From Bacillota bacterium (lineage in GTDB: Bacteria; Bacillota; PH28-bin88): a stretch of 64,000 nucleotides of DNA. The notes beneath the pieces were generated by a model. The model had not been told where the DNA came from and ran no database searches. It saw only the letters and a program-made list of their open reading frames with translations. The stretch is taken from contig JBFLXH010000007.1 of assembly GCA_040757295.1 (NCBI GenBank), positions 35,142-99,141 on the forward strand, given 5' to 3'. The position numbers and the translations under genes are program-made. This document shows positions 2,642 through 62,874 of the stretch, one piece after another; the stretch's first letter is position 1, and every line of letters starts with the position of its first letter.

Positions 2642-3199
2642 ATGCTCAAAAGAAGTGTTTTCGGAAAACTTTTAGGAGTTTGCCTTGTTGGAGTACTGTT
2701 TGTGCTTGTTGTTTTAGGGGTTTTGCGTTGGGCATATCCATTGGAATATGTTGATATTATCCGCCTTGAGGCCTGGGAAAAAGGGCTTGATCCTTATTTA
2801 GTGGCCGCTGTTCTACGAGTAGAAAGCAGATTTGATCCTGAAGCTGTTTCTCCTAAAGGAGCAAGGGGTTTGATGCAGTTAATGCCCGAAACGGCCCAGT
2901 GGGTTGCAAAGCAGGCGGGTGTTAAATATCACCCGGACAAATTATTCGACCCGGGATACAATATAAAACTAGGAACTTGGTACTTGTCGGATTTGCTCCA
3001 TGAGTTTAACGGCAATATTTGGCTGGCATTAGCAGCATACAATGGGGGTCGTGGTAACGTCAGGCAGTGGCTTGCTTCCAGACGATGGCTTGGCGATGTG
3101 GAAACGCTTCACAAGATACCTTTTGCTGAAACCAGGCGATTTGTCCAGAAAGTTAGAATTACCTGGATAGTATACAATAACCTCTATCCTTTTTTATAA
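2642..3199 (+). CDS. lytic transglycosylase (SLT domain) with N-terminal membrane anchor
   Basis: SLT catalytic block VESRFDPEAVSPKGARGLMQLMPETA and an N-terminal TM helix. Confidence 0.8.
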   Translation: MLKRSVFGKLLGVCLVGVLFVLVVLGVLRWAYPLEYVDIIRLEAWEKGLDPYLVAAVLRVESRFDPEAVSPKGARGLMQLMPETAQWVAKQAGVKYHPDKLFDPGYNIKLGTWYLSDLLHEFNGNIWLALAAYNGGRGNVRQWLASRRWLGDVETLHKIPFAETRRFVQKVRITWIVYNNLYPFL

Positions 3200-3324
3200 C
3201 GCATAGGAAATCTATGCTCGTTTAAAAAATGTGGATAAGCCATAATTTCCGTAATGCGTTTCAACAAAATCAACCATATTAAGGATTCTTTCAAAACAAA
3301 GATTTTGTTTTTATCAGGTAACAC
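3196..3324 (+). repeat. intergenic repeat family 1, copy 1 (two-hairpin element)
   Basis: About 85-90% identical to elements at 48221, 52308 and 63905. Arms ACGCATAGGAAATCTATG / CATAATTTCCGTAATGCGT form hairpin 1; AACAAAATC / GATTTTGTT form hairpin 2. The 5' end (TTTTTATAAC) supplies the slt stop codon. Confidence 0.8.
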
Positions 3325-4607: not shown

Positions 4608-4714
4608 TATACTCGACAAGGGATAAAATTGCATTATCATAATGAAGCCGAGTATGAAATTCGCTTTGAGGCCACGGTAAATCAATGAATAATTAGTGGC
4701 CTCGCTCATTATAA
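4608..4714 (+). repeat. intergenic repeat family 2, copy A
   Basis: About 105 nt, near-identical to 59949-60054 (same strand) and to the reverse complement of 58808-58914. Contains the GAGGCCAC...GTGGCCTC hairpin and the outer pairing ATAATGAAGCCGAG / CTCGCTCATTAT. Confidence 0.8.
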
Positions 4715-4797: not shown

Positions 4798-5778
4798 TTG
4801 ATAGTCGGGAGAAAATGGCTTGCTGCTTTGGTTTTTATTCTTTTAGCTTTTGCTGCTGGTTGCTATGGCAAATCCATCCCAGAAGGACCTCAATCTTCGC
4901 CTGCTTCCCCGGAATATTCTTTGAGGATTTTGCGGGTGGGGCTTGTTGATAAATTATACTCTCTAGATCCTAGCGCTATTGCCACTTGGGATGAATTATT
5001 TGTGGCCACTCAAATTCACGAAGGATTGGTCCTACTAAGCTCTGACGGCTCTATCAAGCCTGGTTTAGCCTCGGCCTGGGAAGTTAATAAAGGCGGAACC
5101 CAGTATGTCTTTCATTTAAGTCCGGAAGCCCGTTTCTCCAACGGCCGCAAAATAACCAGCAGGGATGTCAAGCTCTCCTGGGAGCGCTCTGCTAGGATAC
5201 GCCCTGACACGGTATTACCTCTGCTAAAAAGCGTTAAAGGAATGCCGGCAGGTTTAAACGGTGTCGAAGCAAAGGGTGACAACTCCCTTGTAATTGAGCT
5301 GGAGACGCCGGATCCTTTTTTACTCCATTCTTTGAGCCATCCTCTCCTGGCAGTTGTTGACCTGCAGCCAACCAATACTTCCGTTGGCATTCCGGGATGT
5401 GGGCCTTTTCAGGTTGTGGAGTGGATCCCTGGCGAAATGTTAACTTTAGAAAAAAACCCAGAATACCATGGTCCGCAACAAATAATTGAAAGGATTGAAA
5501 TAAGGTGGGAAGGGACTGCACCGGAGAATGCCCTCGTCGATTTCAGCGCTGGGGATCTAGACCTGGTGGTGGAACTGCCAGCTATGTATTACAGGCATAT
5601 TGTGAAAGAACCTTTTCTCGAAAGTTCTTTGCGCCGTTACCGCCCCTCGGGGTCCAAGGGCAATTGGCCAGCTAACCCTGAACACCCATTTGGGTTGACC
5701 CTTGTGGCGGAAAAAATTGAGGGCTTGGATGCAGATGCCCTGGGCCGGCTGGATCTTCGAGGAATAGTATTTAAATAA
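4798..5778 (+). CDS. family-5 solute-binding lipoprotein (peptide/nickel ABC SBP), apparently truncated
   Basis: Lipobox LAFAAGC and SBP_bac_5-like N-terminal region. Only 326 aa (family norm ~520), with no cognate permease or ATPase adjacent. Confidence 0.5.
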   Translation: MIVGRKWLAALVFILLAFAAGCYGKSIPEGPQSSPASPEYSLRILRVGLVDKLYSLDPSAIATWDELFVATQIHEGLVLLSSDGSIKPGLASAWEVNKGGTQYVFHLSPEARFSNGRKITSRDVKLSWERSARIRPDTVLPLLKSVKGMPAGLNGVEAKGDNSLVIELETPDPFLLHSLSHPLLAVVDLQPTNTSVGIPGCGPFQVVEWIPGEMLTLEKNPEYHGPQQIIERIEIRWEGTAPENALVDFSAGDLDLVVELPAMYYRHIVKEPFLESSLRRYRPSGSKGNWPANPEHPFGLTLVAEKIEGLDADALGRLDLRGIVFK

Positions 5779-14115: not shown

Positions 14116-14200
14116 GCGGAAGTGGCGGAACCGGCAGACGCGTACGTTTGAGGGGCGTATGGGAAATCCCGTGGGGGTTCAAGTCCCCCCTTCCGCACCA
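14116..14200 (+). tRNA. tRNA-Leu (anticodon GAG), type II with long variable arm, encoded CCA
   Basis: Hand-folded. Acceptor GCGGAAG/CTTCCGC; anticodon stem TACGT/GCGTA with loop TTGAGGG; variable arm GGGAAATCCC; T-arm GGGGG-TTCAAGT-CCCCC; 3' ACCA. Confidence 0.75.
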
Positions 14201-16518: not shown

Positions 16519-16853
16519 GGGAATATCAAATATTTTAATATTCGGTCTCCGAGCTAATACCGCCTAACGGTTTTTCCTATGGGGTTTAAGCCTGAGCTCT
16601 TAGCTCACGGGGTACAATTACCGGAAACGGGTGTGCCTCCATTATTGGGAAGGAGATGCATTAGGTCGTTTATTATTTCGGCCCTGCTAATTCGTTCCTT
16701 AGCAGGGCCATTATTTATAAGCTGGGATGCAAAAATAAGGTTGTTTATCCTTTTATTAGGTTAGCTGCTTATTAGTACTGGGAGCGCCTTACTGCCTCAG
16801 CAAGTATATCCAAGTTATTAACAAAGCATCGTAGAAGCTTTGGGGGTGTTTTC

Positions 16854-31539: not shown

Positions 31540-31615
31540 GGGCGATTAGCTCAGCTGGGAGAGCACCTGCCTTACAAGCAGGGGGTCGGCAGTTCAAACC
31601 TGTCATCGCCCACCA
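31540..31615 (+). tRNA. tRNA-Val (TAC)
   Basis: Hand-folded cloverleaf; anticodon loop CTTACAA; CCA encoded. Confidence 0.85.
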
Positions 31616-31624
31616 AAAAAGTAC

Positions 31625-31701
31625 GGAGCTGTAGTGTAGCGGTCTAACATGCCGGCCTGTCACGCCGGAGATCGCGGGTTCGATTCCCGTCAGCTCCGCC
31701 A
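31625..31701 (+). tRNA. tRNA-Asp (GTC)
   Basis: Acceptor GGAGCTG/CAGCTCC; anticodon loop CTGTCAC; CCA encoded. Confidence 0.85.
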
Positions 31702-31705
31702 TTCT

Positions 31706-31781
<76 letters not shown>

Positions 31782-31784
31782 GTT

Positions 31785-31859
31785 GCGGAAGTAGCTCAGT
31801 GGTAGAGCATCGCCTTGCCAAGGCGAGGGTCGCGGGTTCGAATCCCGTCTTCCGCTCCA
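31785..31859 (+). tRNA. tRNA-Gly (GCC)
   Basis: Acceptor GCGGAAG/CTTCCGC; anticodon loop TTGCCAA; CCA encoded. Confidence 0.85.
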
Positions 31860-31941
31860 TTAAGTTTATACCGTGCAAGTAACGTAAATGATATTATGAA
31901 GCAACACTCGGCCTATGGCCTTTTTTGAGGCATTTTGTGTT

Positions 31942-32017
31942 GGTGCGGTGGCGAAGAGGCTAACGCCGCGGACTGCAAATCCGCTATTCGTGGGTTCAAA
32001 TCCCACCCGCACCTCCA
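31942..32017 (+). tRNA. tRNA-Cys (GCA)
   Basis: Acceptor GGTGCGG/CCGCACC; anticodon loop CTGCAAA; CCA encoded. Confidence 0.85.
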
Positions 32018-32031
32018 AAAAAGAATGAAAA

Positions 32032-32057
32032 GGACTGCCCAAAAGGCGGTCCGTTTT
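32032..32057 (+). terminator. terminator after tRNA-Cys
   Basis: GGACTGCC-CAAAA-GGCGGTCC hairpin followed by GTTTT. Confidence 0.55.
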
Positions 32058-32081
32058 ACTGCAAAAATATAGAGTGATTGG

Positions 32082-32110
32082 TTGCTAATTACAAAGCAGC
32101 GTGATATAAT
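32082..32110 (+). promoter_or_regulatory. sigma-A promoter (extended -10) for tRNA-Leu(TAA)
   Basis: TTGCTA, 17-nt spacer, TGaTATAAT. Confidence 0.6.
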
Positions 32111-32153
32111 TATTTTTGCCTTCGTTAATTACTATAATTACTATTTAAAATGT

Positions 32154-32241
32154 GCCGGAGTGGCGGAATAGGCAGACGCAAGGGACTTAAAATCCCTCGG
32201 GCCACAAGCCCGTACCGGTTCGAGTCCGGTTTCCGGCACCA
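32154..32241 (+). tRNA. tRNA-Leu (TAA), type II
   Basis: Acceptor GCCGGAG/TTCCGGC (G-U); anticodon loop CTTAAAA; long variable arm; CCA encoded. Confidence 0.8.
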
Positions 32242-39719: not shown

Positions 39720-39877
39720 GAATTATTCTATTCAATTGCCCGTTCGCCAATGTGTAGTTTTTTGTTATTCCGGTAATAATTATATAGACCCCCACGCCGC
39801 TTATCGCGGCACCATCAGAGGGATGAAGAAATATGACAAGCTATTTTCAGGGCAGATAGCTTCTTGTTAATAAAGGG

Positions 39878-46807: not shown

Positions 46808-48145
46808 ATGAAAGCAAAACCATCAACTAAGCAAGAAGTAATGAGTTTGGCAAAAGAGTATGATGTCCAGTTCGTTCGCCTGCAGTTTACTGACATTTTC
46901 GGTGTGCTAAAAAATGTTGCTATTACCGTTGACCAGTTGGAAAAAGCCCTTGATGGTGAGTTAATGTTTGACGGGTCTTCTATTCATGGCTTTGTCCGAA
47001 TCGAAGAATCAGATATGTATCTTCGACCAGACCCAGCAACCTTCACCCTTTTTCCTTGGCGGCCACAGGAAGGAACAGTTGCTAGGTTAATTTGTGATGT
47101 TTATAATCCTGATGGGTCTCCTTTTGAGGGTTGTCCAAGACACATATTGAAATCCGCATTAGCTGAAGCTTCAGAAATGGGTTATACCATGAATGTGGGG
47201 CCTGAGGCTGAATTCTTTTTATTCCAGACAGACACCCATGGTCGGCCCACCTTAGAAACCCATGACCGTGCAGGCTATTTTGACCTTTCGCCTATTGATC
47301 AAGGGGAAAATGCACGCCGGGAAATCTGTTTGGCTTTACAAAAGATGGGTTTTGAAATTGAGGCTTCCCATCACGAGGTTGCGCCTGGACAGCACGAAAT
47401 TGATTTCAAATATGCAGACGCTTTAACTACAGCGGACAATATCGTGACCTTTAAGTTTGTTGTACGGACCCTCGCCCAACGACATGGACTACACGCCACA
47501 TTTATGCCTAAACCGATTTTTGGAATTAACGGCTCTGGCATGCATACCAATCAATCTTTAAGCAAAGACGGAATGAATGCCTTTTTTGATCCTACAGGTC
47601 CTTTGCAATTAAGCCAAATAGCGTATTATTATATTGGGGGCTTAATGAAACATGCCAGAGGTTTTGCAGCCATTACAAATCCGACTGTCAACTCGTATAA
47701 GCGGTTAGTGCCTGGTTATGAAGCTCCTGTTTATATTGCCTGGTCAGCTAGAAACCGTAGCCCTCTAATCCGTATTCCAGCTAAACGAGGGGCCTCTACC
47801 AGAGTTGAACTTCGCAATCCGGATCCGGCATGCAACCCGTACCTGGCAATTGCCGTAATGCTGAAAGCCGGGCTGGATGGTATTAAGAACCAGATTCAAC
47901 CGCCCCCATCAACAGACCGAAATATCTATCATATGGACGAGGAAGAACGGGTAAAAGCAGGTATCTTGAGCCTTCCTGGCAGTTTGGCAGAAGCGTTGGA
48001 AGAACTTTCTGCCAACGAAGTAATAAAAAGCGCTTTAGGCGAACATGTATTTAACCGGTTTGTTGAGGCGAAGAAGCTGGAATATGACGAATTTAGGATC
48101 CATGTAACCCAATGGGAAATTGATAAATACCTTACATTATTTTAA
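46808..48145 (+). CDS. glnA: glutamine synthetase type I
   Basis: 445 aa; the GSI beta-grasp and catalytic domains with conserved blocks ([42 protein letters not shown]). Confidence 0.95.
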
Positions 48146-48185
48146 ATTTGGTCGGTACATTGAAGTACCATTGAGCAGTGACGCT

Positions 48186-48220
48186 CGGCAAGGTTTTTTA
48201 CCTTGCCGGGCGTCTTTTTT
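48186..48220 (+). terminator. rho-independent terminator after glnA
   Basis: CGGCAAGGT-TTTTT-ACCTTGCCG followed by GGCGTCTTTTTT. Confidence 0.8.
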
Positions 48221-48372
48221 ATAACACATAGGAAATTATGCTCGTTTAAAAAATGTAGATAAGTCATAATTTCCGTAATGTGTTGCAACAAAATCAACCA
48301 CATTAAGTTTTTCAAAAGGAAGATTTTGTTCTAACACATAGGAAATTATGCTCGTTTTAAAAGATGTGGGTT
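48221..48372 (+). repeat. intergenic repeat family 1, copy 2 plus a partial tandem copy
   Basis: Full unit 48221-48330 and a second start (TAACACATAGGAAATTATGCTCGTTTTAAAAGATGTGG) at 48331-48372. Same two hairpins as copy 1, with compensatory substitutions. Confidence 0.8.
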
Positions 48373-48434
48373 CGAAAATACTCTTTAGGAGCATTAACGA
48401 GAAAACTTTAAATCATTGAGGGAGGCTAGATAAG

Positions 48435-49811
48435 ATGTCTAAAAAATGGATTAATCTTATGCGCACAGGTTTGTTAGGGGTGTTATTTTGGGTTCTTGCT
48501 GGGATTGCAGTGGCTGATACAGGGGACATAACTGCTGGGGAAATAGCTTTTGCGGTGGATACCCTTTGGACTCTTTTAGCAGGTTTTATGGTTTTTTTCA
48601 TGCATGCTGGATTTACCATGGTGGAAACCGGTTTTACTCGTGCAAAAAATGCAGTAAATATCATTATGAAAAATATTTTAACTATTTCCTCTGGAGTTAT
48701 TATTTTCTATGCTATTGGCTTTGCCATTGCCTTTGGGCCCTCGTTGGGCGGTTTTATAGGTACCAAGGGATTTGGCCTAATTGGTTTAGAAGGAGCAGAT
48801 TTTGGGGTGCCACTTACTGGCTTTTGGTTTTTCCAGGCAGTTTTCGCGGCTACAGCAGCTACGATTGTTTCCGGTGCTGTGGCTGAAAGAACCAAATTTA
48901 GTGCATATCTTTTATTCACTGTTATTATTACCTCGATAACTTATCCAGTGGTAGTGCATTGGGTATGGGGTGGGGGATGGCTGTCCGAACTTGGATTTGT
49001 TGACTTCGCAGGCTCAACGGTCGTTCATAGTGTTGGCGGGTGGTCTGCTCTGGTAGGCGCAGCTTTGGTTGGGGCAAGGATTGGTAAATATGGAACCAAG
49101 GGAGAGGTAAAAGCAATACCTGGCCATAACATACCTTTTGGCGCCCTGGGCGTGCTGATATTGTGGTTTGGCTGGTTCGGTTTTAATTGTGGTAGCACTT
49201 TGTCTGGGACAGATGAGGCCATTTCAAGCATAGCCGCGACAACAATTTTATCTGCCTCAGCGGCTACTGTTTCTGCCATGGCAATAACCTGGCTTAGGTA
49301 TGGGAAACCTGACATCAGTCTTACATTAAACGGTGCCTTGGGTGGGTTAGTAGGGATTACTGCTGGCGCTGCTTCGGTCACCCTCGGAGGCTCTTTACTG
49401 GTAGGGTTGTTTTCAGGGGCTTTGCTAGTATTGGCAGTAGAGTTTATTGATCAAAAACTAAAAATAGACGATCCCGTAGGGGCTATATCTGTTCATGGTG
49501 TGTGCGGCGCTTTTGGAACATTGGCAGTTGGGCTGTTTTCTTCAGAAGCCGGTTTATTTTACGGTGGTGGTACCAGCCTTTTGGCAATTCAGGCGGCTGG
49601 CGTTTTTGCCGTGGGTATTTGGGTAATTCTGATCAGCTTCTTAGCCTTTAAATTAATTGGCTGGGTAGTAGGGTTAAGGGTATCGCCAGAAGAGGAGATA
49701 GAGGGACTTGATGTGGGAGAACACGGTATTTCGGCTTATGGAAATTTGGCGGGCAAAACTGGCCATCCCATTGGAGAAGCTATTGTTGCAAATACCCCAA
49801 TCAGTATCTAA
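48435..49811 (+). CDS. amt: ammonium transporter (Amt family)
   Basis: 11-TM Amt/MEP signature blocks ([23 protein letters not shown]); 458 aa. Confidence 0.9.
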
Positions 49812-49830
49812 TAGGCGGAGGTGCTTTATA

Positions 49831-50169
49831 ATGAAAAAGATCGAGTGTATTTTTAGGCCTTCGAAACTTGAGCAGGTGAAGGAAGCCTTAAGTATGTATG
49901 GTATCAACGGAATGACTGTAACCCATGTCATTGGATGTGGCATACAGAAAGGTAAAACAGAGCTTTATCGCGGGAGTGAATACAGCCTTGATCTCCTGCC
50001 TAAAGTAAAGATAGAGATAATAATCAAAGACGAATTAGTTAGACAGGTAATTGACATTATTTCTTCTGCGGCAAAGACAGGTCAAATAGGTGATGGGAAA
50101 ATATTTGTGTATGATGTAGAAACAGCTATTCGCATTCGAACGGGAGAAACAGGCGATGATGCCATCTAA
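49831..50169 (+). CDS. glnK: nitrogen regulatory protein P-II
   Basis: 112 aa; [13 protein letters not shown]...[23 protein letters not shown] signatures. ATG 49831 with RBS GGAGGTG (the ORF track start at 49708 is an upstream artefact). Confidence 0.9.
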
Positions 50170-50215
50170 TCGTAAGGAAGACTCTTTGCCATAATAAAAA
50201 TTTCCCATAGACAAA

Positions 50216-50253
50216 AAACGGGCGCACTGGCAATCAGGCGCCCGTTTTTTTTT
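50216..50253 (+). terminator. rho-independent terminator after glnK
   Basis: AACGGGCGC...GCGCCCGTT hairpin followed by TTTTTTTTTG. Confidence 0.8.
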
Positions 50254-50388
50254 GTTGTTTCTGGATAGAATACAAAGAACAAAGTTGTTATTAAGAGAAT
50301 TAACGTAAATTTTATATTTTGGCTTTCCTGGCACAACTATAAATTTAACAATTTGCTGTTATTGTGGTAGTCAAAGGGGGTTTTTTCA

Positions 50389-51096
50389 ATGCATACAGCT
50401 GATGCCCAGAGTCTTTGTTTGTCGTTGAAGTGGGCAGGTATTAAAAAAATAATATTTTCAACCCCTCTTTTTGGCGATGATTGCGAGCAGGAAAATACCC
50501 ATATTTTCTGTAATCATCAAGCGCTTCAAATATTGGCAAATGACGGTTATGAAGGACCTACAAGCCAACTGAAAAAATATTTAATCCAATTAGACAAAGG
50601 AGTACAATGGGCAGATAGAGGAAAAGGAAGTATTAATCACCACTATAATCCAAGTTCTGGTAAAGGGCTGTGGCACTGGGCATCTGCTGCGGCTACCTGT
50701 GCCTTTTTTTACTCAAAAGCCTTTGGGCTGTGGGAAAGAGGATTTTTTGAACAAGCAATGTTTTTTTTAGGAGCCAGTACTCATTTGATACAGGATGTGT
50801 GCGCGCCCCACCATGCCCGCTGCCAAGTTCTAGACGGGCACCAGCGTTTCGAACGTTGGGTAAGCAACAGGGTTCATAGTTTTAGGGTTTTTAGGAATGG
50901 TATTTACCAGTTAAAAAGGCCGCCAGAGGAATGGATATCTATAAATGCCACGGAGGGCTATCAGGGATACTCTCTTGTCAGACTAGGCAACAGTAGCAAG
51001 GACTACCACCAAGCGGCATCTCATTTGCTCGCATTGGCACAGAGAAGCACTGCGGGTTTTTGGCTGTCATTTCTCGAAAAAGCCAGAATAATCTAG
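50389..51096 (+). CDS. zinc-dependent phospholipase C family protein (no signal peptide)
   Basis: Zn_dep_PLPC-like motifs (WHWASAA, HLIQDVCAPHH); 235 aa; cytoplasmic by sequence. Confidence 0.6.
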   Translation: MHTADAQSLCLSLKWAGIKKIIFSTPLFGDDCEQENTHIFCNHQALQILANDGYEGPTSQLKKYLIQLDKGVQWADRGKGSINHHYNPSSGKGLWHWASAAATCAFFYSKAFGLWERGFFEQAMFFLGASTHLIQDVCAPHHARCQVLDGHQRFERWVSNRVHSFRVFRNGIYQLKRPPEEWISINATEGYQGYSLVRLGNSSKDYHQAASHLLALAQRSTAGFWLSFLEKARII

Positions 51097-51132
51097 TGTA
51101 ATTAATTAGTTGCTGGGGAAGAGGGTTAATTT

Positions 51133-52311
51133 ATGCCTTTGGCAGATATTTTACTGCTGACAGCCCCTTTTGGGGGGGGACATCTTCATGCTGGTATGGC
51201 ATTGGAACATGCCTTTCAGCGATTTTTCCCTGAGGTAAAAGTAGCCTCATTTGATTTTGTTAAGGAAATAAGTCCATGGCTGGCAGGGTCCGCTAACTCC
51301 CTGTTGCTTGCTACCATAAGGTTTAAACCGGAATTATACGGGTCTTTTTACAACTATGTAGACAGGCTACCCCATGATTCATCTCTGCAAAAAGGATTGA
51401 ATCGAATAGGCTTAAACAAAGGCGCAAAACTTTTAGAGGATATTCAACCGCAGGTGGTGGTTTCTTTTTATCCGACCCCCTCCCAGGTTGTAGGAGATCT
51501 CAAGGGTAAGGGACAGTTTAAGGGCCAATTGGTGACAGTTATAACTGATTATGCTGTAAATAAGCAATGGATTCATCCGCTGACAGACCTGTACTTGGTT
51601 GCGGCTACTGAGGTAAAAAATGAGCTGACAGCCTGCGGGGTATCCGATGATAAAATCAAAGTGACCGGTATTCCTATTTCTCTGGATTTTGCTCAGGAAA
51701 AGATCAGAAATGAACTTTTAAAAACCCACGGTTTAGATCAGAGCCTCCCTCTTTTGCTGATCTGCTGTGGGGCATTTGGCGTTATCAGAGGTATTGAGGA
51801 GTTATGCAGAGAAATATCCTCTTACAAGGCCTCCCTGCAAAGCGTTATAATTGCTGGTAGGAACTTTCGGTTGCAACGGCGTCTGGAGGCTATTGCCCAA
51901 AGAGCTAAACACCCTTTTTATGTATATGGGTATGTTAAAGATATGGCTGATTGGATGGCAATGGCAGACATTGTTGTTAGTAAATCTGGCGGTTTAACTG
52001 TAAGTGAGGCATTAGCGTGTGAGCTTCCAATGGTAATTATTCCTCCTCTTCCAGGTCAAGAAACAGCTAATGCCCAATACCTTCTTAACTATGGAGCAGC
52101 TGTCTGTTGCGACGATATTTCTCAAATTCCACAAGTAATATTGCATCTGTTGACAAAACCTTCAGAGATGCAAAAAATGCGATGCTCGGCACGAGAGATA
52201 AAAAAACCCTTTGCAGCTAAACATGCGGCTTCAGTGATAGCTGGAATGCTGTCTTGTATTCATTCAGAAAGGGAAGCACAGAAACTGATGGTCGGAGCAT
52301 CTTTTTTATAA
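51133..52311 (+). CDS. diacylglycerol glycosyltransferase (MGDG synthase / UgtP-like, GT28 family)
   Basis: MGDG_synth N-terminal domain (LLLTAPFGGGHLHAG) and a C-terminal GT-B domain; 392 aa. Confidence 0.75.
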   Translation: MPLADILLLTAPFGGGHLHAGMALEHAFQRFFPEVKVASFDFVKEISPWLAGSANSLLLATIRFKPELYGSFYNYVDRLPHDSSLQKGLNRIGLNKGAKLLEDIQPQVVVSFYPTPSQVVGDLKGKGQFKGQLVTVITDYAVNKQWIHPLTDLYLVAATEVKNELTACGVSDDKIKVTGIPISLDFAQEKIRNELLKTHGLDQSLPLLLICCGAFGVIRGIEELCREISSYKASLQSVIIAGRNFRLQRRLEAIAQRAKHPFYVYGYVKDMADWMAMADIVVSKSGGLTVSEALACELPMVIIPPLPGQETANAQYLLNYGAAVCCDDISQIPQVILHLLTKPSEMQKMRCSAREIKKPFAAKHAASVIAGMLSCIHSEREAQKLMVGASFL

Positions 52312-52410
52312 CACAAAGGAAATTAGGCTCGTTTAAAATATTTGGATAAGTCATAATTTCCGTTTCAACAAAATCCACCACACTAAGTGTTCCAAAGGAA
52401 GATTTTGTTC
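52308..52410 (+). repeat. intergenic repeat family 1, copy 3 (hairpin-1 3' arm partly deleted)
   Basis: ATAACACAAAGGAAATTAGGCTCGTTTAAAATATTTGGATAAGTCATAATTTCC ... GATTTTGTTC. The 5' end supplies the stop codon of the glycosyltransferase gene. Confidence 0.75.
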
Positions 52411-52446
52411 TGATATGTTCCTTAATATTTACCTGGAGGTGTTTTT

Positions 52447-52599
52447 ATGAAATTTAATCATGTAAACCTGCTTAACCGGGAAAGGGCGCTGCTATTGGAT
52501 AAATGGCTTTTGGAGCCCCAATCTAGACCAAAAATTTTGGCAAGGATAATGGAGCTAGAAGAAGAGATATCAATACATATGGAGAAGACTAGAAACAGT
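52447..52599 (+). CDS. small hypothetical ORF (50 aa) immediately downstream of repeat copy 3
   Basis: RBS GGAGG 7 nt upstream of the ATG; followed by CGGCTTTGCA...TGCAAAGCCG hairpin; no family recognised. Confidence 0.3.
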
Positions 52600-52785
52600 T
52601 AATAAAAAACAATACGGCTTTGCAAAAGAGGATGCAAAGCCGCAGTGTTTCTTCCAGCAAAAATCATTTTCCTTATCGCAAAAAAATTGTTTCCCCGTAC
52701 CAGCAGGTCTTTTCAAGTCTTTGAGGCTATTGGCTTAATAATTGCTTGGTTATTATAAAAATATTGTCAGAAAGCAGGAGGGGAT

Positions 52786-53748: not shown

Positions 53749-53859
53749 AAAAGGACAGAATTGATTGAGGCGAAAAGCGCGGTTTATTTTGGTGGTGGAC
53801 GAGGTTGGAATTAAATGGAGATATTGACTAAAGCTTATATATTATGATATTATAATTTT

Positions 53860-54133
53860 GAGCTTTGCAAAATATTGGCTGAAACAGTCAATCCATCAGA
53901 TCGCTGAGTTTCCTTTTCTTAAAAAGGAAAGCGGGGGACCTAATTTTTTGGGGCTAATCCGGCGAAAATTGGCCATAAAATGGCCAAAATTGCGCTGGAC
54001 GGGTGAATCCTCTTCGATCCGAGCCCGTCAACTAACCTCGTAAGCGTGGGAGAAGGAGGTGGATTGGGTTTAGCAGCAGCATTGCTTGTCGATGTTGTTT
54101 TGCTGCTTTTCCCACCCAAGGAGATGCCTCCTT
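53860..54133 (+). promoter_or_regulatory. structured ~270-nt leader ending in an intrinsic terminator (54103-54133), immediately upstream of ODH-family/B12-domain operon; candidate riboswitch or attenuator of unknown class
   Basis: Hairpins TTTCCTTTT-CTTA-AAAAGGAAA, TTGGCCAT-AAA-ATGGCCAA and GACGGG..CCCGTC. Then CCCAAGGAG-ATGC-CTCCTTGGG plus TTATTTTTT, 25 nt before the ORF. Confidence 0.5.
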
Positions 54134-54157
54134 GGGTTATTTTTTCCTCCCGATTAG

Positions 54158-55375: not shown

Positions 55376-55404
55376 AAAAGCCAGGCAAATTACTGACCGC
55401 AGCG

Positions 55405-57030: not shown

Positions 57031-57405
57031 CTAAAATAGATTGCCCGGAGCTAAAACTCTCCGGGCAATCTATTTTAATGGGGTTTGTAGTCCTGGTGAT
57101 GCCAGTTAGGGTTATTTCTCTTTGGATCAGGGGCGCCGGGACCGATTTCTTTATGGCCATGAGGGGACGGATCCTTGCCGTATGCTGGGTGGCTGCCATA
57201 CTGCTGAGGGGGCTTTTAATTCTCCATTTGGTCCCCCAAACTGCTGCAGTAAAAGAGTTGCAAATCTAGGATCGGGTTGGCTTACCCTGACATGGTATTC
57301 AGTATCTTTTACGTGTTTAAACAATAAACATATCCCTCCTATTTTAAATATCGAATTTAGGATATGATAACTTATGTTTTTGGATACTAATAAAATCCTG
57401 GAAAA

Positions 57406-58734
57406 TTAATTCGGTTCCATGTTTCTTAGGTTTAACCAAGAGATAATTCGTTGAAGTGTTTTTTCCATTTTACCTTCAGCGAAGGAACCTGTGGTTGGTT
57501 TAGAGGGGAGACCCTTAATGAGCTCTTTTTGGTTTATTAACCAAACGCATAATATGGCGCCAGCCAAAGCTAATAATCCGCCAGCCATTAGCATCACCTG
57601 TTTGCTTACCTCTAATAGAAGGCTGAATGCTGGAGGCCCCAGTGCAACGCCAAAAAAGCGAACACTGCCATAGAGGGCTGTGATCCCGCCCCTTTCTTCC
57701 AGAGGAACAGAACTGGTAACAAGGGTATTAACTGCCGGAAGGACAAGCCCGGTGCCAATCCCCATAATAGTTACGCCGACAAAAAAAATCCAATCCATAG
57801 GAAATATGGCTATTAATAAGAGAGAGGAAGCAACAGAAGCCAGACCAAGAATAACGATAAATTTAAGCAAAAAGCCCCGTTTTTGTAAGAAACGCCCACT
57901 GGCGTACGAGGTTGTGGCCATAGCTAGGACAGGGATGGCTATGGCAAATCCTTTGATAACCCCTTTTAGATTGTACCTGGTTTCTAAAACATCAGACAAA
58001 TATGATAAAACCCCAAAAAGAACCAATAGGACTATGCTACCGGCTAGGTAACAGCCAATAAGGGATTTGCCTTTTTCCATAAAAATTTTTTTTAAGGTTT
58101 TTAAATATTCACCTGCAGTTCTATCCTTGGTTTTTAATGGCGGCTCTATTATTGCAAGCCATATACCCACGGCAATAGGAATAGCGAGAAATGAATATAC
58201 AAAGAACAAGGCAAACCAAGTAATTAAGGCTATAAGGGAACCCAGGATTGGACTGATTACTTTACCTAATCCGTTTGCTGCCTCAATCACACCAAGGGCC
58301 TTGCTGCGTTCTTGGTTTTGGAAAATATCCCCTGCTAAGGCCATCGCAATCGGGGCTGTTCCGGCGGCGCCAATACCTTGAATCACTCTCCCTACTAACA
58401 GTACAATATATGAGTTTGGTAGCAACCAAGCTGCAATTCCTGACAGAAGTCCTCCAAGACCATACATTATGAGGGCGGGGATTAGTATTTTCTTTCTGCC
58501 TATTTTGTCGGATAAGAAACCTAATAGAGGAATGCTGATGCCGGCAGGGATCGAAAAAAGGGTAATAGTCAGCCCCGCTTGAAACTGGGTAATGTTTAAG
58601 GCCTGCTGCATCTGCGGGAATACTGGAATTAACATCGAGTTGCCAAGAACCATAATAAAAGGAACTCCGCTTAAAGCGGCTAATTTCCAAGTTTTGTTGC
58701 TGGCCATCTGTTGCTCCTTTAATCGTTGATGCAT
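57406..58734 (-). CDS. MFS transporter (12 TM)
   Basis: MFS signature GRVIQGIGAAG and 12 predicted TM helices; 442 aa. Confidence 0.85.
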   Translation of the reverse strand: MHQRLKEQQMASNKTWKLAALSGVPFIMVLGNSMLIPVFPQMQQALNITQFQAGLTITLFSIPAGISIPLLGFLSDKIGRKKILIPALIMYGLGGLLSGIAAWLLPNSYIVLLVGRVIQGIGAAGTAPIAMALAGDIFQNQERSKALGVIEAANGLGKVISPILGSLIALITWFALFFVYSFLAIPIAVGIWLAIIEPPLKTKDRTAGEYLKTLKKIFMEKGKSLIGCYLAGSIVLLVLFGVLSYLSDVLETRYNLKGVIKGFAIAIPVLAMATTSYASGRFLQKRGFLLKFIVILGLASVASSLLLIAIFPMDWIFFVGVTIMGIGTGLVLPAVNTLVTSSVPLEERGGITALYGSVRFFGVALGPPAFSLLLEVSKQVMLMAGGLLALAGAILCVWLINQKELIKGLPSKPTTGSFAEGKMEKTLQRIISWLNLRNMEPN

Positions 58735-58807
58735 ATAATGTATGCCTATTATGTGTCTTTTTAAAGGAGTATACGCGTACTGTTCAGAGTAATAATTTGG
58801 CGAGATA

Positions 58808-58914
58808 TTATAATGAGCGAGGCCACTAATTATTCATTGATTTACCGTGGCCTCAAAGCGAATTTCATACTCGGCTTCATTATGATAATGCAATTTTATC
58901 CCTTGCCGAGTATA
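58808..58914 (-). repeat. intergenic repeat family 2, copy B (inverted orientation)
   Basis: The reverse complement matches 4608-4714 almost base-for-base. Confidence 0.8.
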
Positions 58915-59009: not shown

Positions 59010-59942
59010 GTGTTAAGCAAAAAATTTAAATTTATTACTGATATGAAATCCGAACTTCCCCCCAAGAGGGTTTGTATTGCGGCTGCGGCTGACAACAAAG
59101 TTTTGGCATCCGTAAAAATGGCATTGGGAGACGGCTTGGGAAGCTTTACCTTAATTGGCGATTGTGACCGCATTACAGAAATAGCTGAGGAAATTGAACT
59201 CGACCTAAAAGGAGTCCGGTTAATTGATCAGCCAAGCCCGGATCAAGCCGCTCAGCATGCCTGCCATCTGGCCGGGGCAGGAGAGGTCGATATTGTCGTA
59301 AAGGGAACTGTTAATACCGCAGATTTTTTGCGGGGAGTGTTAAATCACCATAATGGCCTTAGAACCGGGCGAATATTAAGCCATGTTGGCATTTTTGACA
59401 TTCCTTCTTATGATCGTTTGCTGTACGTGACTGATGCCGGCATTAATATTAAACCTACTTTTGAGGAAAAAAAGCAGATCATTCAAAATGCTGTGGAATT
59501 AGCCGTTTCTCTAGGAATTCAACTGCCCAAAGTTGCACTTTTGGCTGCGGTTGAAACCGTTAATCCAAAAATGGAGGCTACTTTAGAGGCTGCGGCCCTT
59601 GCGAAAATGGCTGAACGGGGGGAACTTCGTGGCGCTATTGTAGACGGGCCTTTAGCTTTAGACAATGCTGTCAGCAGAGATGCAGTTTTAAGTAAGGGGA
59701 TTAAGAGTGAAGTGGCTGGTGCAGCGGATATATTGATTGTACCTAACATTGAGGTTGGAAACGTCCTTGTAAAAAGTCTAACATATTTTGCAGGCGCTAC
59801 GCTGGGAGGAGTTGTGCAAGGGGCTAGAGTTCCAGTCGTGATGACATCCCGGGCTGATTCTGCAGAAACTCGCTATTTATCTTTGATTGTTGCCTGTGTT
59901 AGCAGCCACTTAAACAGCATTAAAAGCGCTATCGGGAAATAG
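59010..59942 (+). CDS. ptb: phosphate butyryltransferase / phosphotransacylase family
   Basis: PTA_PTB family blocks (KGTVNTADFL, SRADSAE); ~310 aa is the Ptb length class; GTG start. Confidence 0.8.
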   Translation: MLSKKFKFITDMKSELPPKRVCIAAAADNKVLASVKMALGDGLGSFTLIGDCDRITEIAEEIELDLKGVRLIDQPSPDQAAQHACHLAGAGEVDIVVKGTVNTADFLRGVLNHHNGLRTGRILSHVGIFDIPSYDRLLYVTDAGINIKPTFEEKKQIIQNAVELAVSLGIQLPKVALLAAVETVNPKMEATLEAAALAKMAERGELRGAIVDGPLALDNAVSRDAVLSKGIKSEVAGAADILIVPNIEVGNVLVKSLTYFAGATLGGVVQGARVPVVMTSRADSAETRYLSLIVACVSSHLNSIKSAIGK

Positions 59943-59948
59943 TAAAAA

Positions 59949-60054
59949 TATACTCGGCAAGGGTAAAATTGCTTTATCTAATGAAGCCGAGTATGAAATT
60001 CGCTTTGAGGCCACGGTAAATCAATGAATAATTAGTGGCCTTGCTCATTATAAA
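59949..60054 (+). repeat. intergenic repeat family 2, copy C
   Basis: TATACTCGGCAAGGGTAAAATTGC...GAGGCCACGGTAAATCAATGAATAATTAGTGGCCTTGCTCATTATAAAA; about 95% identical to copy A. Confidence 0.8.
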
Positions 60055-60155: not shown

Positions 60156-60941
60156 GTGGGAATTATCAGCAATAAAAGGAGCGGCTATATACAATCAGTA
60201 GATAGAGCCTTATCAATTCTGGAAGCATTTGCACCCGGACAGTGGCTGGGAGTTCGGGAATTGGGTTCCCTTGTTGGATTACCCAAAAGTACTACTTATG
60301 GACTGTTAATCACCCTGACCAAGAGAGGTTATTTGGTGCAAAACCCTGAAAATGGAAAGTATAAACTTGGCTTAAAGCTATTTGAACTGGGCAACAGGTT
60401 TATTGATGGGCTTGATGTGCGCCAAGAAGCGCTTCCCTTTTTAAAGCAGCTTAATGAAAGTTTTCAAGAGACTGTGCACTTAGTAACCCTTGATGCAGAT
60501 GAGGTTGTGTATATTGATAAAGTAGAAGGGCCTCGCAGTATTAGAATGTCTTCCCGGGTTGGCCAGCGGAATCCATTATACTGTACGGCTGTGGGCAAAG
60601 TCCTGATGGCGAATATGCCAGAATCTCTTGTGCTAAATATCATTAATAAAGGCCTGAAAGAATATACTCCTTTCACAATCACTGACCCCCATAAGTTACT
60701 AGCCCACTTAAAAACTGTTAGACAGCAAGGCTATGCGCTAGACGACCAGGAATTGGAGATAGGTCTTCGCTGTGTTGCAGCGCCAATTATGGATCATTTA
60801 GGCAATGCAGTGCTGGCTTTGAGTGTTTCTGCTCCTGTTGACAGACTGGGCGAGGCAAAACTGCAGGAGGTGATTAATTCCTTAAAAAATGTTGCGGCTA
60901 TTATTTCCACAAGACTTGGCCATTTAGGGCCAATAATTTAA
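60156..60941 (+). CDS. IclR family transcriptional regulator
   Basis: N-terminal wHTH (SVDRALSILEAF...LGVRELGSLVGLPKSTTYGLLITL) and C-terminal IclR effector domain; 261 aa. Confidence 0.85.
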   Translation: MGIISNKRSGYIQSVDRALSILEAFAPGQWLGVRELGSLVGLPKSTTYGLLITLTKRGYLVQNPENGKYKLGLKLFELGNRFIDGLDVRQEALPFLKQLNESFQETVHLVTLDADEVVYIDKVEGPRSIRMSSRVGQRNPLYCTAVGKVLMANMPESLVLNIINKGLKEYTPFTITDPHKLLAHLKTVRQQGYALDDQELEIGLRCVAAPIMDHLGNAVLALSVSAPVDRLGEAKLQEVINSLKNVAAIISTRLGHLGPII

Positions 60942-60971
60942 TTTTGCAGGTTCGCGGAAAGGAGCATAGGA

Positions 60972-61868
60972 ATGAATTTAAATGGCAGAATTAGCGTTGC
61001 CATTATTGGCCCTGGCAACATCGGTACTGACCTTATGTATAAAGTTTTACGCAGCAAAAACCTCAAATTAGATTTGGTAGCCGGAGTAATTGAGGCTTCA
61101 GAAGGGCTAGCCTTAGCCCGGAAGGAGGGAGTGCTGACTACTTCCAAAGGTATTGGACCGATTTTGGAAAATCCTGAAATTAAAATTGTATTTGATACAA
61201 CTGGAGCAAAGCCCCATATCATGCATGCGCCCATGCTCGAGGCCGCCGGTAAAATTGCAATTGACCTTACCCCTGCAGCGGTTGGTCCTTATGTTGTCCC
61301 TGCTGTAAATATGGAAGACCATCTGAATAGCCCGAACATCAACTTGATTACGTGTGGTGGGCAGGCAACCATTCCCATTGTTTACGCTATCAACGAGGTA
61401 GCAGGAGTCGAATATGCCGAGATCGTTGCTACTATCAGCAGTAAGAGCGCTGGTCCCGCGACCAGGCAAAACATTGACGAATTTACAAAAACAACTGCTG
61501 CCGGCTTAGTAAAAATCGGCGGTGCTCAAAGGGGAAAGGCAATCATTATCTTGAATCCAGCCGATCCCCCAATTTTGATGCGGAATACCATTTATACCCT
61601 TGTCCGCGAAAGCGATGCCGACAGGATTAGAAAGGCTGTAAATAATATGGTAGCCCGTATCCAGGAATATGTACCGGGGTATCGGCTTAAAGTACCACCT
61701 TTAGTTGAAGGGAACAAGGTTACAACTATGATTGAGGTCAAGGGTGCGGGAGATTACCTGCCTGAATACTCAGGCAATCTAGATATCATTACAGCTGCAG
61801 CAGTTGGGGTAGCTGAGAAATTGGCTGCAAATATTCTGAAACAGTCGGGGGGTGAGGTTGTTGCCTAA
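60972..61868 (+). CDS. mhpF: acetaldehyde dehydrogenase (acetylating), MhpF/DmpF family
   Basis: [13 protein letters not shown]; catalytic Cys in [12 protein letters not shown]; 298 aa. Confidence 0.9.
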
Positions 61869-62874
61869 AAGAATACAAATAATCGATATGACCTTAAGAG
61901 ATGGCAGTCATTCCTTTGACCATCAATATACTCCAGGTCAGATGGCGGCCATATCAAAGGGATTAGATGAAGCAGGGGTAGATTACATTGAGATAGGCCA
62001 TGGGGATGGATTGGGAGCCTCTTCCCTTCAATACGGTTTATCTGCTGCGAAGGATGCAGAATATCTTCAATCGGTTTCTGCTGTAGTAGAGCGAGCAAAA
62101 ATATGTGTCCTTTTAATACCTGGAATTGGCATTAAGGAAGACCTGGAAATGGCCAAGGGCTACGGCGTACGGGCTGCAAAAATTGCCTGCTTGGTGACAG
62201 AAGTTGATATTGGCCAGCAGCATATTGAACTTGCAAAGAGTTTAGGACTAGAAGCCATAGGCTTCATGATGATGTCCCACTTGCTTGAACCGGATAAAGT
62301 TGCGGTCCAGGCTAAGCTTTTTGCCGATTATGGTGCAGATATTGTGTACGTGGTTGACTCGGCAGGAGCCTTGCTGCCTGTTGATGTAAAAGCCCGAATT
62401 ACCAGAGTAATAGAAACGGTAAATATTCCTGTAGGATTCCATGCCCATAACAACTTAGGTTGTGCCGTAGGTAATGCCTTGGCTGCAGTTGAAGCCGGTG
62501 CAACGTACATTGATGTAGCTCTTTGTGGTTTGGGTGCTGGCGCCGGAAATGCTCAGTCCGAGGCGGTAGTTGCATCTTTGATGAAAATGGGTTATATAAC
62601 CGGTGTAGATTTATATAAAATCAGCGATGTTGCCCAGGATATTGCACGACCCTTACTTCGGCGTCCCCAAGAAATTGACCGGGCTGCCTTAATGCTTGGG
62701 TATTCAGGGGTATATTCCAGTTTTCTTTTGCATACTTACCGGGCAGCCGAAAAGTTCGGTGTTGATGCCAGAGATATCCTAGTGGAGTTAGGACGACGCA
62801 AGACTGTTGGCGGCCAAGAAGATATGATTGTGGATGTTGCCTTTGAACTAAGCCAGCGAAGGGCAAGCAAATAG
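61852..62874 (+). CDS. mhpE: 4-hydroxy-2-oxovalerate aldolase, MhpE/DmpG family
   Basis: DMTLRDGSH metal-binding start; HAHNNLG; C-terminal DmpG communication domain; overlaps mhpF by 17 nt. Confidence 0.9.

What the first reader, a model, noticed from the sequence alone, without database searches (positions are those of the whole stretch)
4608..4714. Second repeat family (~105 nt, 3 copies), two of which form an inverted pair bracketing the ptb gene
Copy A (4608-4714), copy C (59949-60054) and the reverse complement of copy B (58808-58914) are nearly identical. Each contains a strong hairpin, GAGGCCAC-(22 nt)-GTGGCCTC, nested inside a longer pairing, ATAATGAAGCCGAG / CTCGCTCATTAT. Copies B and C lie in opposite orientation on either side of the 933-bp ptb gene (59010-59942), a composite-element-like geometry. 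Copy A lies upstream of a truncated, orphan family-5 SBP gene. The arrangement suggests MITE-mediated capture or rearrangement of ptb, or paired regulatory/terminator elements insulating it from the divergent MFS gene and downstream iclR.
Basis: seen in the sequence. Interest (0 to 1): 0.6.

Follow-up and report, generated by a model that had tools for sequence, protein, structure and literature searches.

The report
Small TA-duplicating mobile repeat (MITE)
The three ~105-nt repeats are copies of a small non-coding jumping element (a MITE) that duplicates a TA on insertion and has at least 15 copies in this uncultured bacterium; it landed next to the ptb gene rather than capturing it, so this is an ordinary kind of element in a new lineage.

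Summary
There are three near-identical copies: A 4610-4711 (+), B 58811-58912 (-) and C 59951-60050 (+). Each is flanked by TA on both sides and contains two hairpins.

The element is a miniature non-autonomous transposable element (MITE).
- A related genome (L026, collinear with the window at 80-92% DNA identity) has an exact empty site for B: GAGATAT[TA]TTC against GAGATAT[TA]{102 nt}[TA]TTC, a 104-nt gain.
- Another copy in the same MAG (L024) interrupts a helicase gene. Deleting 104 nt restores a continuous 1,510-aa ORF that aligns without gaps to intact homologues.
- The MAG holds at least 15 copies, 80-100% identical. These include head-to-tail pairs, a 5'-truncated copy in an IS-rich region, and seven copies within 4.3 kb.
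- All 11 full copies with resolved ends have TA on both sides.

In the relative, ptb lies at the same MFS<->ptb->dmpF locus without B, so the composite-transposon (ptb capture) idea is refuted. The terminator/insulator idea has no support: there is no U-tract and the relative lacks the element.

The transposase is unknown. The TA duplication points to an IS630/Tc1-mariner type, but the terminal inverted repeats are weak and no parent IS was found.

Both hairpin stems are conserved, with two compensatory changes, and an outward-facing promoter-like motif is present in all copies. This is a new member of a known kind, of low to moderate interest.

The parts
4608..4609 (.). TA flanking copy A on its 5' side (putative target-site duplication)
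   Evidence: All 11 full copies with resolved ends have TA on both sides.
4610..4711 (+). MITE copy A, 102 nt, TACTCGAC...CGCTCATTA
   Evidence: It is 99% identical to B.
4608..4656 (+). Hairpin 1 of copy A: arms 4608-4617 and 4647-4656 (TATACTCGAC / GCCGAGTATG; one A.C mismatch in this copy), loop 30 nt
   Evidence: Fold. Pair counts over 13 copies (helix 1: 96.6% of cells paired; the pair at columns 17/60 is A-U in 6 copies, G-C in 3, unpaired in 3).
4668..4703 (+). Hairpin 2 of copy A: GAGGCCAC (4668-4675), 20-nt loop, GTGGCCTC (4696-4703)
   Evidence: helix 3: 100% paired; the closing pair is G-C in 7 copies, G-U in 4, C-G in 2.
4666..4693 (+). Outward-facing sigma-70-like motif inside the element: TTGAGG, 16 nt, AATAAT (9 of 12 matches to consensus)
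   Evidence: Scans. The motif is present in all 11 full copies, including the diverged subfamilies. Its function has not been tested.
4712..4713 (.). TA flanking copy A on its 3' side
4798..5778 (+). Truncated SBP_bac_5 ORF, starting 84 nt downstream of copy A
   Evidence: Pfam, profile positions 2-194 of 368.
57406..58707 (-). MFS transporter gene. The likely start is the ATG at 58707, which has an AAGGAG RBS (the ORF lister begins at 58734). It starts 101 nt downstream of copy B, in the element's own orientation.
   Evidence: The L026 orthologue is 433 aa.
58809..58810 (.). TA flanking copy B (one of the two copies of the duplicated target)
   Evidence: The empty site in L026/L027 has a single TA here.
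58811..58912 (-). MITE copy B, 102 nt. It is an insertion relative to the orthologous site in L026/L027.
   Evidence: The alignment gap is exactly 104 columns.
58913..58914 (.). TA flanking copy B (second copy of the duplicated target)
59010..59942 (+). ptb (PTA_PTB family). It is resident at this locus and was not captured.
   Evidence: The orthologue is at the same MFS<->ptb->dmpF locus in L026.
59949..59950 (.). TA flanking copy C on its 5' side
59951..60050 (+). MITE copy C, 100 nt (two 1-nt deletions; the hairpin-2 closing pair is G.T)
60051..60052 (.). TA flanking copy C on its 3' side
60156..62874 (+). iclR (60156-60941), dmpF-like acetaldehyde dehydrogenase (60972-61868) and dmpG-like aldolase (61852-62874), starting 103 nt downstream of copy C
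   Evidence: Pfam.

Best explanation
[quoted passage not shown] It is a 102-bp, A+T-rich, non-coding, non-autonomous DNA transposon that inserts at TA dinucleotides and duplicates the TA. A transposase encoded elsewhere in the genome mobilises it in trans.

Copies A, B and C are three independent simple insertions into A+T-rich intergenic DNA. B landed in the divergent MFS/ptb promoter region. C landed 6 nt after the ptb stop codon.

Shown here: insertion polymorphism, the TA duplication, multiple copies, an insertion into a gene, and head-to-tail arrays that share a TA.

Inferred: the enzyme. An IS630/Tc1-mariner-type DDE transposase is the most likely candidate, because TA duplication is the hallmark of that group (as for RUP and IS630-Spn1). 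I put about 45% on that sub-claim. Also inferred: the two conserved hairpins and the invariant core are what the enzyme recognises.

Possible side effects on neighbouring genes, not tested: the element may displace native promoters or operators, and it carries an outward-facing promoter-like motif.
For: (1) Orthologous empty site. L026 and L027 (ptb 91% identical at protein level; DNA collinear with the window at 80-92%) read GAGATAT[TA]TTCTTG where the window reads GAGATAT[TA]{58811-58912}[TA]TTCCCG. The gap is exactly 104 nt.

(2) Copy L024 lies inside a helicase gene. Homologues P0004 and P0005 read through the junction. Deleting 104 nt restores one continuous 1,510-aa ORF, whereas deleting 102 or 106 nt does not. 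The restored ADL-SF-FIRS aligns without gaps to ADLAPFIGS and ADFGLFLDR.

(3) A paralogous empty site. The window reads ...GACAAGC[TA]TTTT at 39836-39850. L032 has a copy inserted at that TA after the same sequence.

(4) At least 15 copies in one MAG. Thirteen have DNA in hand, at 80-100% identity in several subfamilies. All 11 full copies with resolved ends are flanked TA...TA.

(5) Contexts are heterogeneous: upstream of genes, between convergent genes, antisense, inside a CDS, and in an IS-rich region.

(6) Short-read assemblies break at every copy.

(7) The element is A+T-rich, at 38-43% GC against 44-52% for the contigs. It folds stably, z = -3 to -4. It has no Rfam match.

(8) These features match the published definition of bacterial MITEs and RUP (PMC2229807; PMC10969869).
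Against: The terminal inverted repeats are weak: 8 of 12 matches, shuffle p about 0.03.

No autonomous IS with matching ends was found. I looked in the window, in 32 fetched loci, in the JGI metagenomes, in viral contigs and among plasmids and phages.

A 2-bp 'duplication' cannot be formally distinguished from an element that carries one TA and inserts next to a TA.

Only one orthologous empty site (B) is available. A and C have none.

All copies come from a single MAG deposited twice. Contig GC varies from 44% to 52%, so mis-binning of the short contigs cannot be excluded.
Confidence: 0.85

Rival explanations
1. The element is mobile but is not moved by a DDE transposase acting on inverted repeats. 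Instead its two conserved hairpins are recognised on single-stranded DNA by an HUH/Y1 transposase (an IS200/IS605-type 'PATE'). Alternatively, a serine transposase of the IS607 type exchanges strands at a TA core. In either case the flanking TAs are a target or crossover dinucleotide and not a true duplication.
For: The TIRs are weak, while both hairpin stems are conserved with one compensatory pair each. Stems, spacer and tail vary in 7 of 55 columns, against 21 of 51 in the loops (Fisher p = 0.001). The same MAG carries an intact IS605-type element with Y1 TnpA and TnpB. Seven copies in L032 all point the same way, as expected for strand-biased ssDNA transposition.
Against: The ends of the IS605-type element in L018 show no similarity to the MITE (scores within the shuffle range). 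The bases preceding the left TA vary (AG, AA, AA, TA, AC, AA, GA), so there is no conserved 4-5-nt target of the kind IS200/IS605 members need. The hairpin loops are 20-30 nt, unlike the tight IS608-type hairpins (this comparison is from my own knowledge). B and C lie in opposite orientations 1 kb apart. Part of the L032 array is a segmental duplication, so its orientations are not independent.
Confidence: 0.15
2. The repeat is primarily a cis-regulatory module (a promoter/operator or 5' leader RNA). It would put the SBP, MFS and iclR-dmpFG units under common control, for example by the adjacent IclR regulator.
For: In the window all three copies are co-oriented with the next gene and end 84, 101 and 103 nt before its start. 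L032 copy 3277-3175 ends about 100 nt before an acetyltransferase gene. The promoter-like motif TT[G/C]AGG, 16-17 nt, AATAAT points outward and is kept in all 11 copies. Promoters are known in Correia and other MITEs (PMC10969869).
Against: Copy B lies between divergent genes, so co-orientation of the three window copies has a chance probability of about 0.25. Other copies lie inside a CDS in antisense (L024), between convergent gene ends (L032 1056-850), antisense to both neighbours (L032 5107-4797), or in front of a minus-strand terminator (L018). The relative L026 has the same MFS and ptb genes without the element. Copies that are 95-100% identical with unrelated flanks point to recent spread, not to a conserved operator. 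There is no Rfam match.
Confidence: 0.08
3. B and C form the inverted ends of a composite transposon that captured and moved ptb.
For: B and C are inverted, 96% identical, and bracket ptb with 96 nt and 6 nt to spare.
Against: ptb sits at the same MFS<->ptb->dmpF locus in L026/L027 without B. DNA collinearity continues through ptb, and the only difference at B's site is the 104-nt single-element insertion with its own TA on both sides. The next relative (L030) also has ptb without any repeat.
Confidence: 0.02
4. The hairpins are paired transcription terminators or insulators around ptb.
For: Hairpin 2 has 8 G+C-rich base pairs.
Against: The loop is 20 nt, and no T-run follows the stem on either strand. 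The terminator scan finds nothing in any copy. The element also occurs where no terminator would be needed (inside a CDS, L024).
Confidence: 0.03
5. The antisense ORF (MSEATNYSLIYRGLKANFILGFIMIMQFYPLPSI...) encodes a small hydrophobic protein, for example a type I toxin.
For: The ORF is open through the whole element in A, B, L018 and L024, and annotators have called it as a gene.
Against: Indels break the frame in C and in the diverged subfamilies. The ATG sits at the element terminus, so any RBS would have to come from the unrelated flank. The C-termini run into the flanking DNA and all differ.
Confidence: 0.02

Closest known systems
RUP (repeat unit of pneumococcus), Streptococcus pneumoniae, thought to be mobilised by IS630-Spn1
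   Same: Length of about 105 bp (RUP is 107 bp). Non-coding and A+T-rich. Inserts at TA, with TA at both termini. Copies are highly similar, which implies recent activity. Tends to sit in or next to IS elements (L009). Found in a Gram-positive (Bacillota) host. (RUP features from PMC2229807.)
   Different: There is no detectable sequence similarity. RUP has clear TIRs that match its parent IS. Here the TIRs are weak (8 of 12) and no parent was found. This element folds into two separate hairpins with large loops instead of one long stem. Its copy number is far lower (at least 15 against 108).
Correia / NEMIS elements of Neisseria (107- and 155-bp forms)
   Same: TA duplication. Filled and empty sites are visible between related genomes. 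Frequently located just upstream of genes. Carries sigma-70-like promoter motifs. (PMC2229807, PMC10969869.)
   Different: Correia elements have 24-26-bp near-perfect TIRs, and the long form has an IHF-binding site; neither is seen here. Promoter activity has been shown experimentally for Correia and has not been tested here.
IS200/IS605-derived palindrome-associated elements (PATEs) and REP/REPIN sequences
   Same: The ends are dominated by hairpins, not TIRs. The stems are conserved by compensatory change. An IS605-type element is present in the same MAG.
   Different: There is no conserved 4-5-nt target on the left flank and no similarity to the resident IS605 ends. The hairpin loops are 20-30 nt. 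TA is present on both sides.

Membership tests
Bacterial MITE (as defined in Delihas 2008, PMC2229807) | Small (<200 bp) and present in multiple copies | tested here: met
   100-103 bp. At least 15 copies in one MAG.
Bacterial MITE (as defined in Delihas 2008, PMC2229807) | Evidence of mobility: filled versus empty sites and a target-site duplication | tested here: met
   Orthologous empty site for B with a single TA. Insertion inside a CDS, restored by deleting 104 nt. Paralogous empty site at window 39844.
Bacterial MITE (as defined in Delihas 2008, PMC2229807) | 5'-TA-3' at the termini; A+T-rich | tested here: met
   TA on both sides of all 11 full copies with resolved ends. GC is 38-43%, against 44-52% for the host contigs.
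Bacterial MITE (as defined in Delihas 2008, PMC2229807) | Terminal inverted repeats | tested here: inconclusive
   TACTCGGCAAGG against TAATGAGCGAGG: 8 of 12 matches, shuffle p = 0.03. The match is weaker in the diverged subfamily (TGCTC... / ...CATTT). The published table of bacterial MITEs also includes families without TIRs (CIR, YPAL).
Bacterial MITE (as defined in Delihas 2008, PMC2229807) | No protein-coding capacity | tested here: met
   The only open frame (antisense) is broken in C and in the diverged copies.
Bacterial MITE (as defined in Delihas 2008, PMC2229807) | Stable secondary structure of the transcript or single strand | tested here: met
   MFE of -30 kcal/mol, z = -3.0 to -4.1. 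97.7% of cells are paired across 13 copies.
IS630/Tc1-mariner-derived MITE (RUP-like) | TA target and TA duplication | tested here: met
IS630/Tc1-mariner-derived MITE (RUP-like) | Termini match those of an IS630-family IS in the same genome | not testable with these tools
   No IS with these ends was found in the window, in 32 loci, or in the metagenome, viral, plasmid and phage collections.
IS200/IS605-derived PATE | Insertion 3' of a conserved tetra- or pentanucleotide, without duplication | tested here: not met
   Only TA is constant. Positions -3 and -4 vary among the copies.
IS200/IS605-derived PATE | Ends homologous to the LE and RE of a resident IS200/IS605 element | tested here: not met
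   The ends of the L018 TnpA/TnpB element are unrelated to the MITE.
Composite transposon | The passenger gene is absent from this locus in relatives, and the duplication flanks only the outer ends | tested here: not met
   ptb is present at the same locus in L026/L027. B alone accounts for the 104-nt difference and has TA on both of its own sides.
Described RNA families (Rfam 15), including riboswitches and leaders | Match to a covariance model | tested here: not met
   No hit at gathering threshold, or at E <= 10, over the copies.
Intrinsic terminator | G+C-rich hairpin with a short loop, followed by a U-tract | tested here: not met
   The loop is 20 nt and there is no T-run. The scans are negative.

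The most novel reading that the evidence does not exclude
The element may be a TIR-poor, hairpin-defined MITE. On this reading its two conserved stems and its invariant 11-nt spacer are recognised as folded single-stranded DNA or RNA by a non-DDE enzyme (a Y1/HUH or serine transposase) that targets a bare TA. That would be a hybrid between the IS630-like target rule and IS200/IS605-like end recognition, which has not been described. The same invariant core may also act as an outward-facing mobile promoter that now drives the SBP, MFS and iclR-dmpFG units.
Probability: 0.1. Interest if true: 0.55.

Novelty: new member of a known kind. Interest (0 to 1): 0.25.

Why it matters
For annotation, these repeats should be masked as a MITE family. 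They should not be read as regulatory RNAs, small genes (they have already been called as 'hypothetical proteins' ACOY9Y_04125, _09380 and _11795) or signs of gene capture.

The family fragments short-read assemblies of this organism. It has inactivated or truncated at least one gene (a large helicase). It has also been inserted into the MFS/ptb divergent promoter region and in front of the iclR-dmpFG operon, so it may alter expression of a fermentation and aromatic-degradation locus.

Beyond this, it adds one more lineage-specific MITE to a well-known class. The only unusual points are the weak TIRs, the strongly conserved internal hairpins and the conserved outward promoter-like motif.

Tried and rejected
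- Sigma-54 promoter in the element. The GG-to-GC spacing is wrong by 4 nt (read from the sequence). Rejected.
- Rfam, at gathering threshold and at E <= 10. Nothing matched.
- BLASTN of the element against plasmid and phage records in distant mode. No match.
- JGI metagenome scans with a 27-mer from the core and a 23-mer from the 5' terminus. No match.
- Viral-contig scans with both termini. No match.
- Genome-collection scan with the hairpin-2 pattern. It gave 17 chance hits in high-GC genomes and only 2 real ones. It did not return other copies now known to match the pattern, so it cannot be used to count copies.
- I first thought the 44%-GC window and the 52%-GC loci were different organisms sharing the element by horizontal transfer. 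I withdrew this after the accession series showed one MAG deposited twice.
- L025 as an empty site for the helicase insertion. It is not one: a different IS4-like element sits about 20 nt away.
- L009 DDE_5 / DDE_Tnp_1_assoc IS as the parent. Its inverted repeats (CTTGAGAGTCAAAAGTT / CTTTAGAGTTAAAAGTT) are unrelated to the MITE. It simply abuts the truncated copy.
- L018 IS605-type element as the parent. Its ends are unrelated.
- Empty site for C. It cannot be decided, because L026 has a deletion of iclR at that place and keeps about 17 nt of the iclR 3' end. L030 has a different gene context.
- Empty site for A. No relative's contig covering that region could be fetched.

Full report
OBSERVATION

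The three copies are real. They are A 4608-4714 (+), B 58808-58914 (-) and C 59949-60054 (+), and they align over about 106 nt with unrelated flanks. A and B are 99% identical. C is 95-96% identical to them and has two single-base deletions. A profile of the three finds them at E = 1e-43 to 4e-39 and finds nothing else in the window. Each 19-nt terminus occurs three times, against 0.01 expected by chance.

The hairpin GAGGCCAC/GTGGCCTC is present, but its loop is 20 nt, not 22. There is a second, 10-bp hairpin at the 5' end, TATACTCGGC...GCCGAGTATG. Rfam has no match.

FIRST LEAD AND WHY IT WAS NOT ENOUGH

All three copies are co-oriented with the next gene and end 84-103 nt before its start:
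- A precedes a truncated SBP_bac_5 ORF.
- B precedes an MFS transporter.
- C precedes iclR-dmpF-dmpG.

This looks like a leader or promoter module. However, B lies between divergent genes, so the chance probability of the pattern is only about 0.25. Near-identity of 100 nt with unrelated flanks is also not how paralogous regulatory sites usually look.

MORE COPIES

An independent short-read assembly (SRR32167787) breaks exactly inside A, B and C, and ptb lies alone on a 1,117-nt contig. This is typical of a dispersed repeat.

The genome-collection scan found two copies in 'Bacillota bacterium MAG124'. One is full-length (L018). The other is a 5'-truncated 75-nt copy (L009) in a nest of IS elements.

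DNA scans were capped, so I used the element's antisense ORF as a protein handle. It retrieved annotated 'hypothetical proteins' made from further copies:
- P0001 contains two adjacent copies.
- P0002 led to L024.
- P0137 led to L032.

L032 carries seven copies within 4.3 kb, all in one orientation, at 80-99% identity to the window copies. They include two head-to-tail pairs that share a TA.

Accession series show that the window and all these contigs belong to one MAG deposited twice. I therefore withdrew an earlier idea of transfer between genomes. The total is at least 15 copies, 13 of them with DNA in hand.

PROOF OF INSERTION

(a) Orthologous empty site. ptb homologues gave L026 and L027, from a relative whose DNA is collinear with window 46935-62855 at 80-92% identity and which has no copy of the repeat. 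At B's site the relative reads GAGATAT[TA]TTCTTG. The window reads GAGATAT[TA]{102 nt}[TA]TTCCCG. The gap is exactly 104 columns.

(b) Insertion in a gene. In L024 the element sits inside a large helicase gene (AAA_11/AAA_12). The first 44 codons, which have a good RBS, run into the element, and the rest of the gene continues in another frame. Homologues P0004 and P0005 read straight through the junction. Deleting 104 nt restores a single continuous 1,510-aa ORF, whereas deleting 102 or 106 nt does not. The restored ADL-SF-FIRS aligns without gaps to ADLAPFIGS and ADFGLFLDR.

(c) Paralogous empty site. A short sequence at window 39786-39844 ends ...GACAAGC[TA]TTTT. In L032 the same sequence has a copy inserted at that TA.

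(d) All 11 full copies with resolved ends are flanked by TA on both sides.

Together these results show a mobile element of 102 bp that gains 104 bp per insertion. The simplest reading is a TA target-site duplication.

ptb lies at the same MFS<->ptb->dmpF locus in the relative, without B. B is therefore a simple insertion next to a resident gene, and the B...C pair is not a composite transposon.

C cannot be judged. The relative has lost iclR at that spot and retains about 17 nt of its 3' end. The next relative has ptb in a different operon, with no repeats.

No copy has a U-tract after a hairpin, so the terminator/insulator idea has no support.

MECHANISM

The features match the published definition of bacterial MITEs: under 200 bp, non-coding, A+T-rich (38-43% GC), TA termini, a target duplication and a stable fold (PMC2229807). 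RUP (107 bp, TA targets, IS630-Spn1, frequent in IS elements) and the 107-bp Correia form are the closest analogues.

The TA duplication points to an IS630/Tc1-mariner-type transposase. That step is inference only. The TIRs are weak (8 of 12), and no parent IS was found anywhere I could search.

The diverged copies show that both hairpin stems are maintained. Across 13 copies, 97.7% of cells are paired, against 29-45% for slid controls. One pair in each stem has changed on both sides (A-U to G-C, and G-C to C-G). Stems, spacer and tail vary in 7 of 55 columns, against 21 of 51 in the loops (Fisher p = 0.001). These are only two events within clear subfamilies, so the evidence is suggestive and not conclusive.

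This keeps a rival alive, namely hairpin recognition by an IS200/IS605-type or IS607-type enzyme. The MAG does carry an intact Y1 TnpA/TnpB element. However, its ends are unrelated to the MITE, and the bases before the left TA are not conserved. Both points count against an IS608-like target rule.

POSSIBLE EFFECTS ON THE HOST

A promoter-like motif, TT[G/C]AGG, 16-17 nt, AATAAT, faces out of the 3' end and is present in all 11 full copies. Such promoters are known in Correia and other MITEs (PMC10969869).

In the window it would point at the SBP fragment, the MFS gene and iclR-dmpFG. Elsewhere, though, copies lie antisense, between convergent genes, or inside a gene. Any regulatory role is therefore at most a by-product. 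It has not been tested.

VERDICT

The finding is a genuine repeat family, and it is a lineage-specific MITE: a new member of a well-known kind. The ptb capture and insulator parts do not. Interest is low to moderate. The only unusual features are the weak TIRs combined with strongly conserved internal hairpins and core.

Noticed in passing
window 3190-3315, 48215-48332, 52302-52411, 63898-64000; L032 5153-5258: A separate repeat family of about 120 nt (77-86% identical between copies). It contains the inverted repeat AACACATAGGAAATTATG...CATAATTTCCGTAATGTGTT. At 52308-52426 the relative L026 has only about 17 nt.
   Followed up: partly
window 39786-39844; L032 792-850 and 3125-3160: A third short repeat (36-59 nt, 97-100% identical) with the hairpin GCCGC-TTATC-GCGGC. 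In L032 it lies directly next to MITE copies. I used it only as a paralogous empty site, and its nature is unknown.
   Followed up: partly
window 48163-50193, 52606-57033, ~57034-57221; L026 3751-4296: Relative to the collinear relative L026, the window has an extra 2-kb block, which starts with a family-1 repeat. It also has an extra 4.4-kb block carrying the c-di-AMP riboswitch (53892-54061) and two genes. It has lost most of a Mn-catalase gene.
   Followed up: no
window 59933-60909 vs L026 6924-6945 and 9178-9948: iclR lies between ptb and dmpF in the window. In L026 only about 17 nt of its 3' end remain there, and a different IclR gene follows dmpG. The regulator has been lost or replaced in one lineage.
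   Followed up: partly
L018 2130-3639 and 3628-4107: A complete IS200/IS605-type element (Y1 TnpA of 134 aa plus TnpB of 380 aa) is inserted into a dmpG-like gene, of which only the C-terminal DmpG_comm part remains.
   Followed up: partly
L018 6729-6553 (minus strand): A near-consensus promoter (TTGACT, 17 nt, TATAAT) is followed after about 100 nt by a hairpin and a T-run. No ORF is listed and there is no Rfam match. It may be a small RNA gene.
   Followed up: no
L009 128-2658: An IS of about 2.5 kb with inverted repeats CTTGAGAGTCAAAAGTT / CTTTAGAGTTAAAAGTT and a possible ATAA duplication. It encodes a DruA-like/DDE_Tnp_1_assoc ORF and a frameshifted DDE_5 ORF. It abuts the truncated MITE copy and an ISL3 transposase gene.
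   Followed up: partly
L025 1-420 vs L024 10240-10258: In a relative (helicase 86% identical), a different IS with an IS4-like transposase C-terminus is inserted about 20 nt from the MITE site in the same helicase gene. This may be an insertion hot spot, or the gene may be decaying.
   Followed up: no
L032 4900-5000: A run of 100 N separates two identical copies of the element. This is probably a scaffolding artefact at a tandem pair, so these may count as one or two copies.
   Followed up: no
window vs L009, L018, L024, L032: Contigs attributed to one MAG differ in GC: 44% for the window, 49% for L032 and 52% for L009, L018 and L024. The high-GC contigs are rich in IS, restriction-modification and defence genes. 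They may be genomic islands or mis-binned contigs.
   Followed up: no
Genome-contig scan: The scan returned two MAG124 contigs. It did not return the window's own copies A and B or the L024 copy, although these match the pattern and appear to belong to the same assembly. Copy counts taken from that scan are lower bounds.
   Followed up: no
window 16535-16671, 31540-32238, 14116-14197: A Moco/tungsten riboswitch, a cluster of six tRNA genes and a further tRNA gene. These are ordinary features unrelated to the finding.
   Followed up: no
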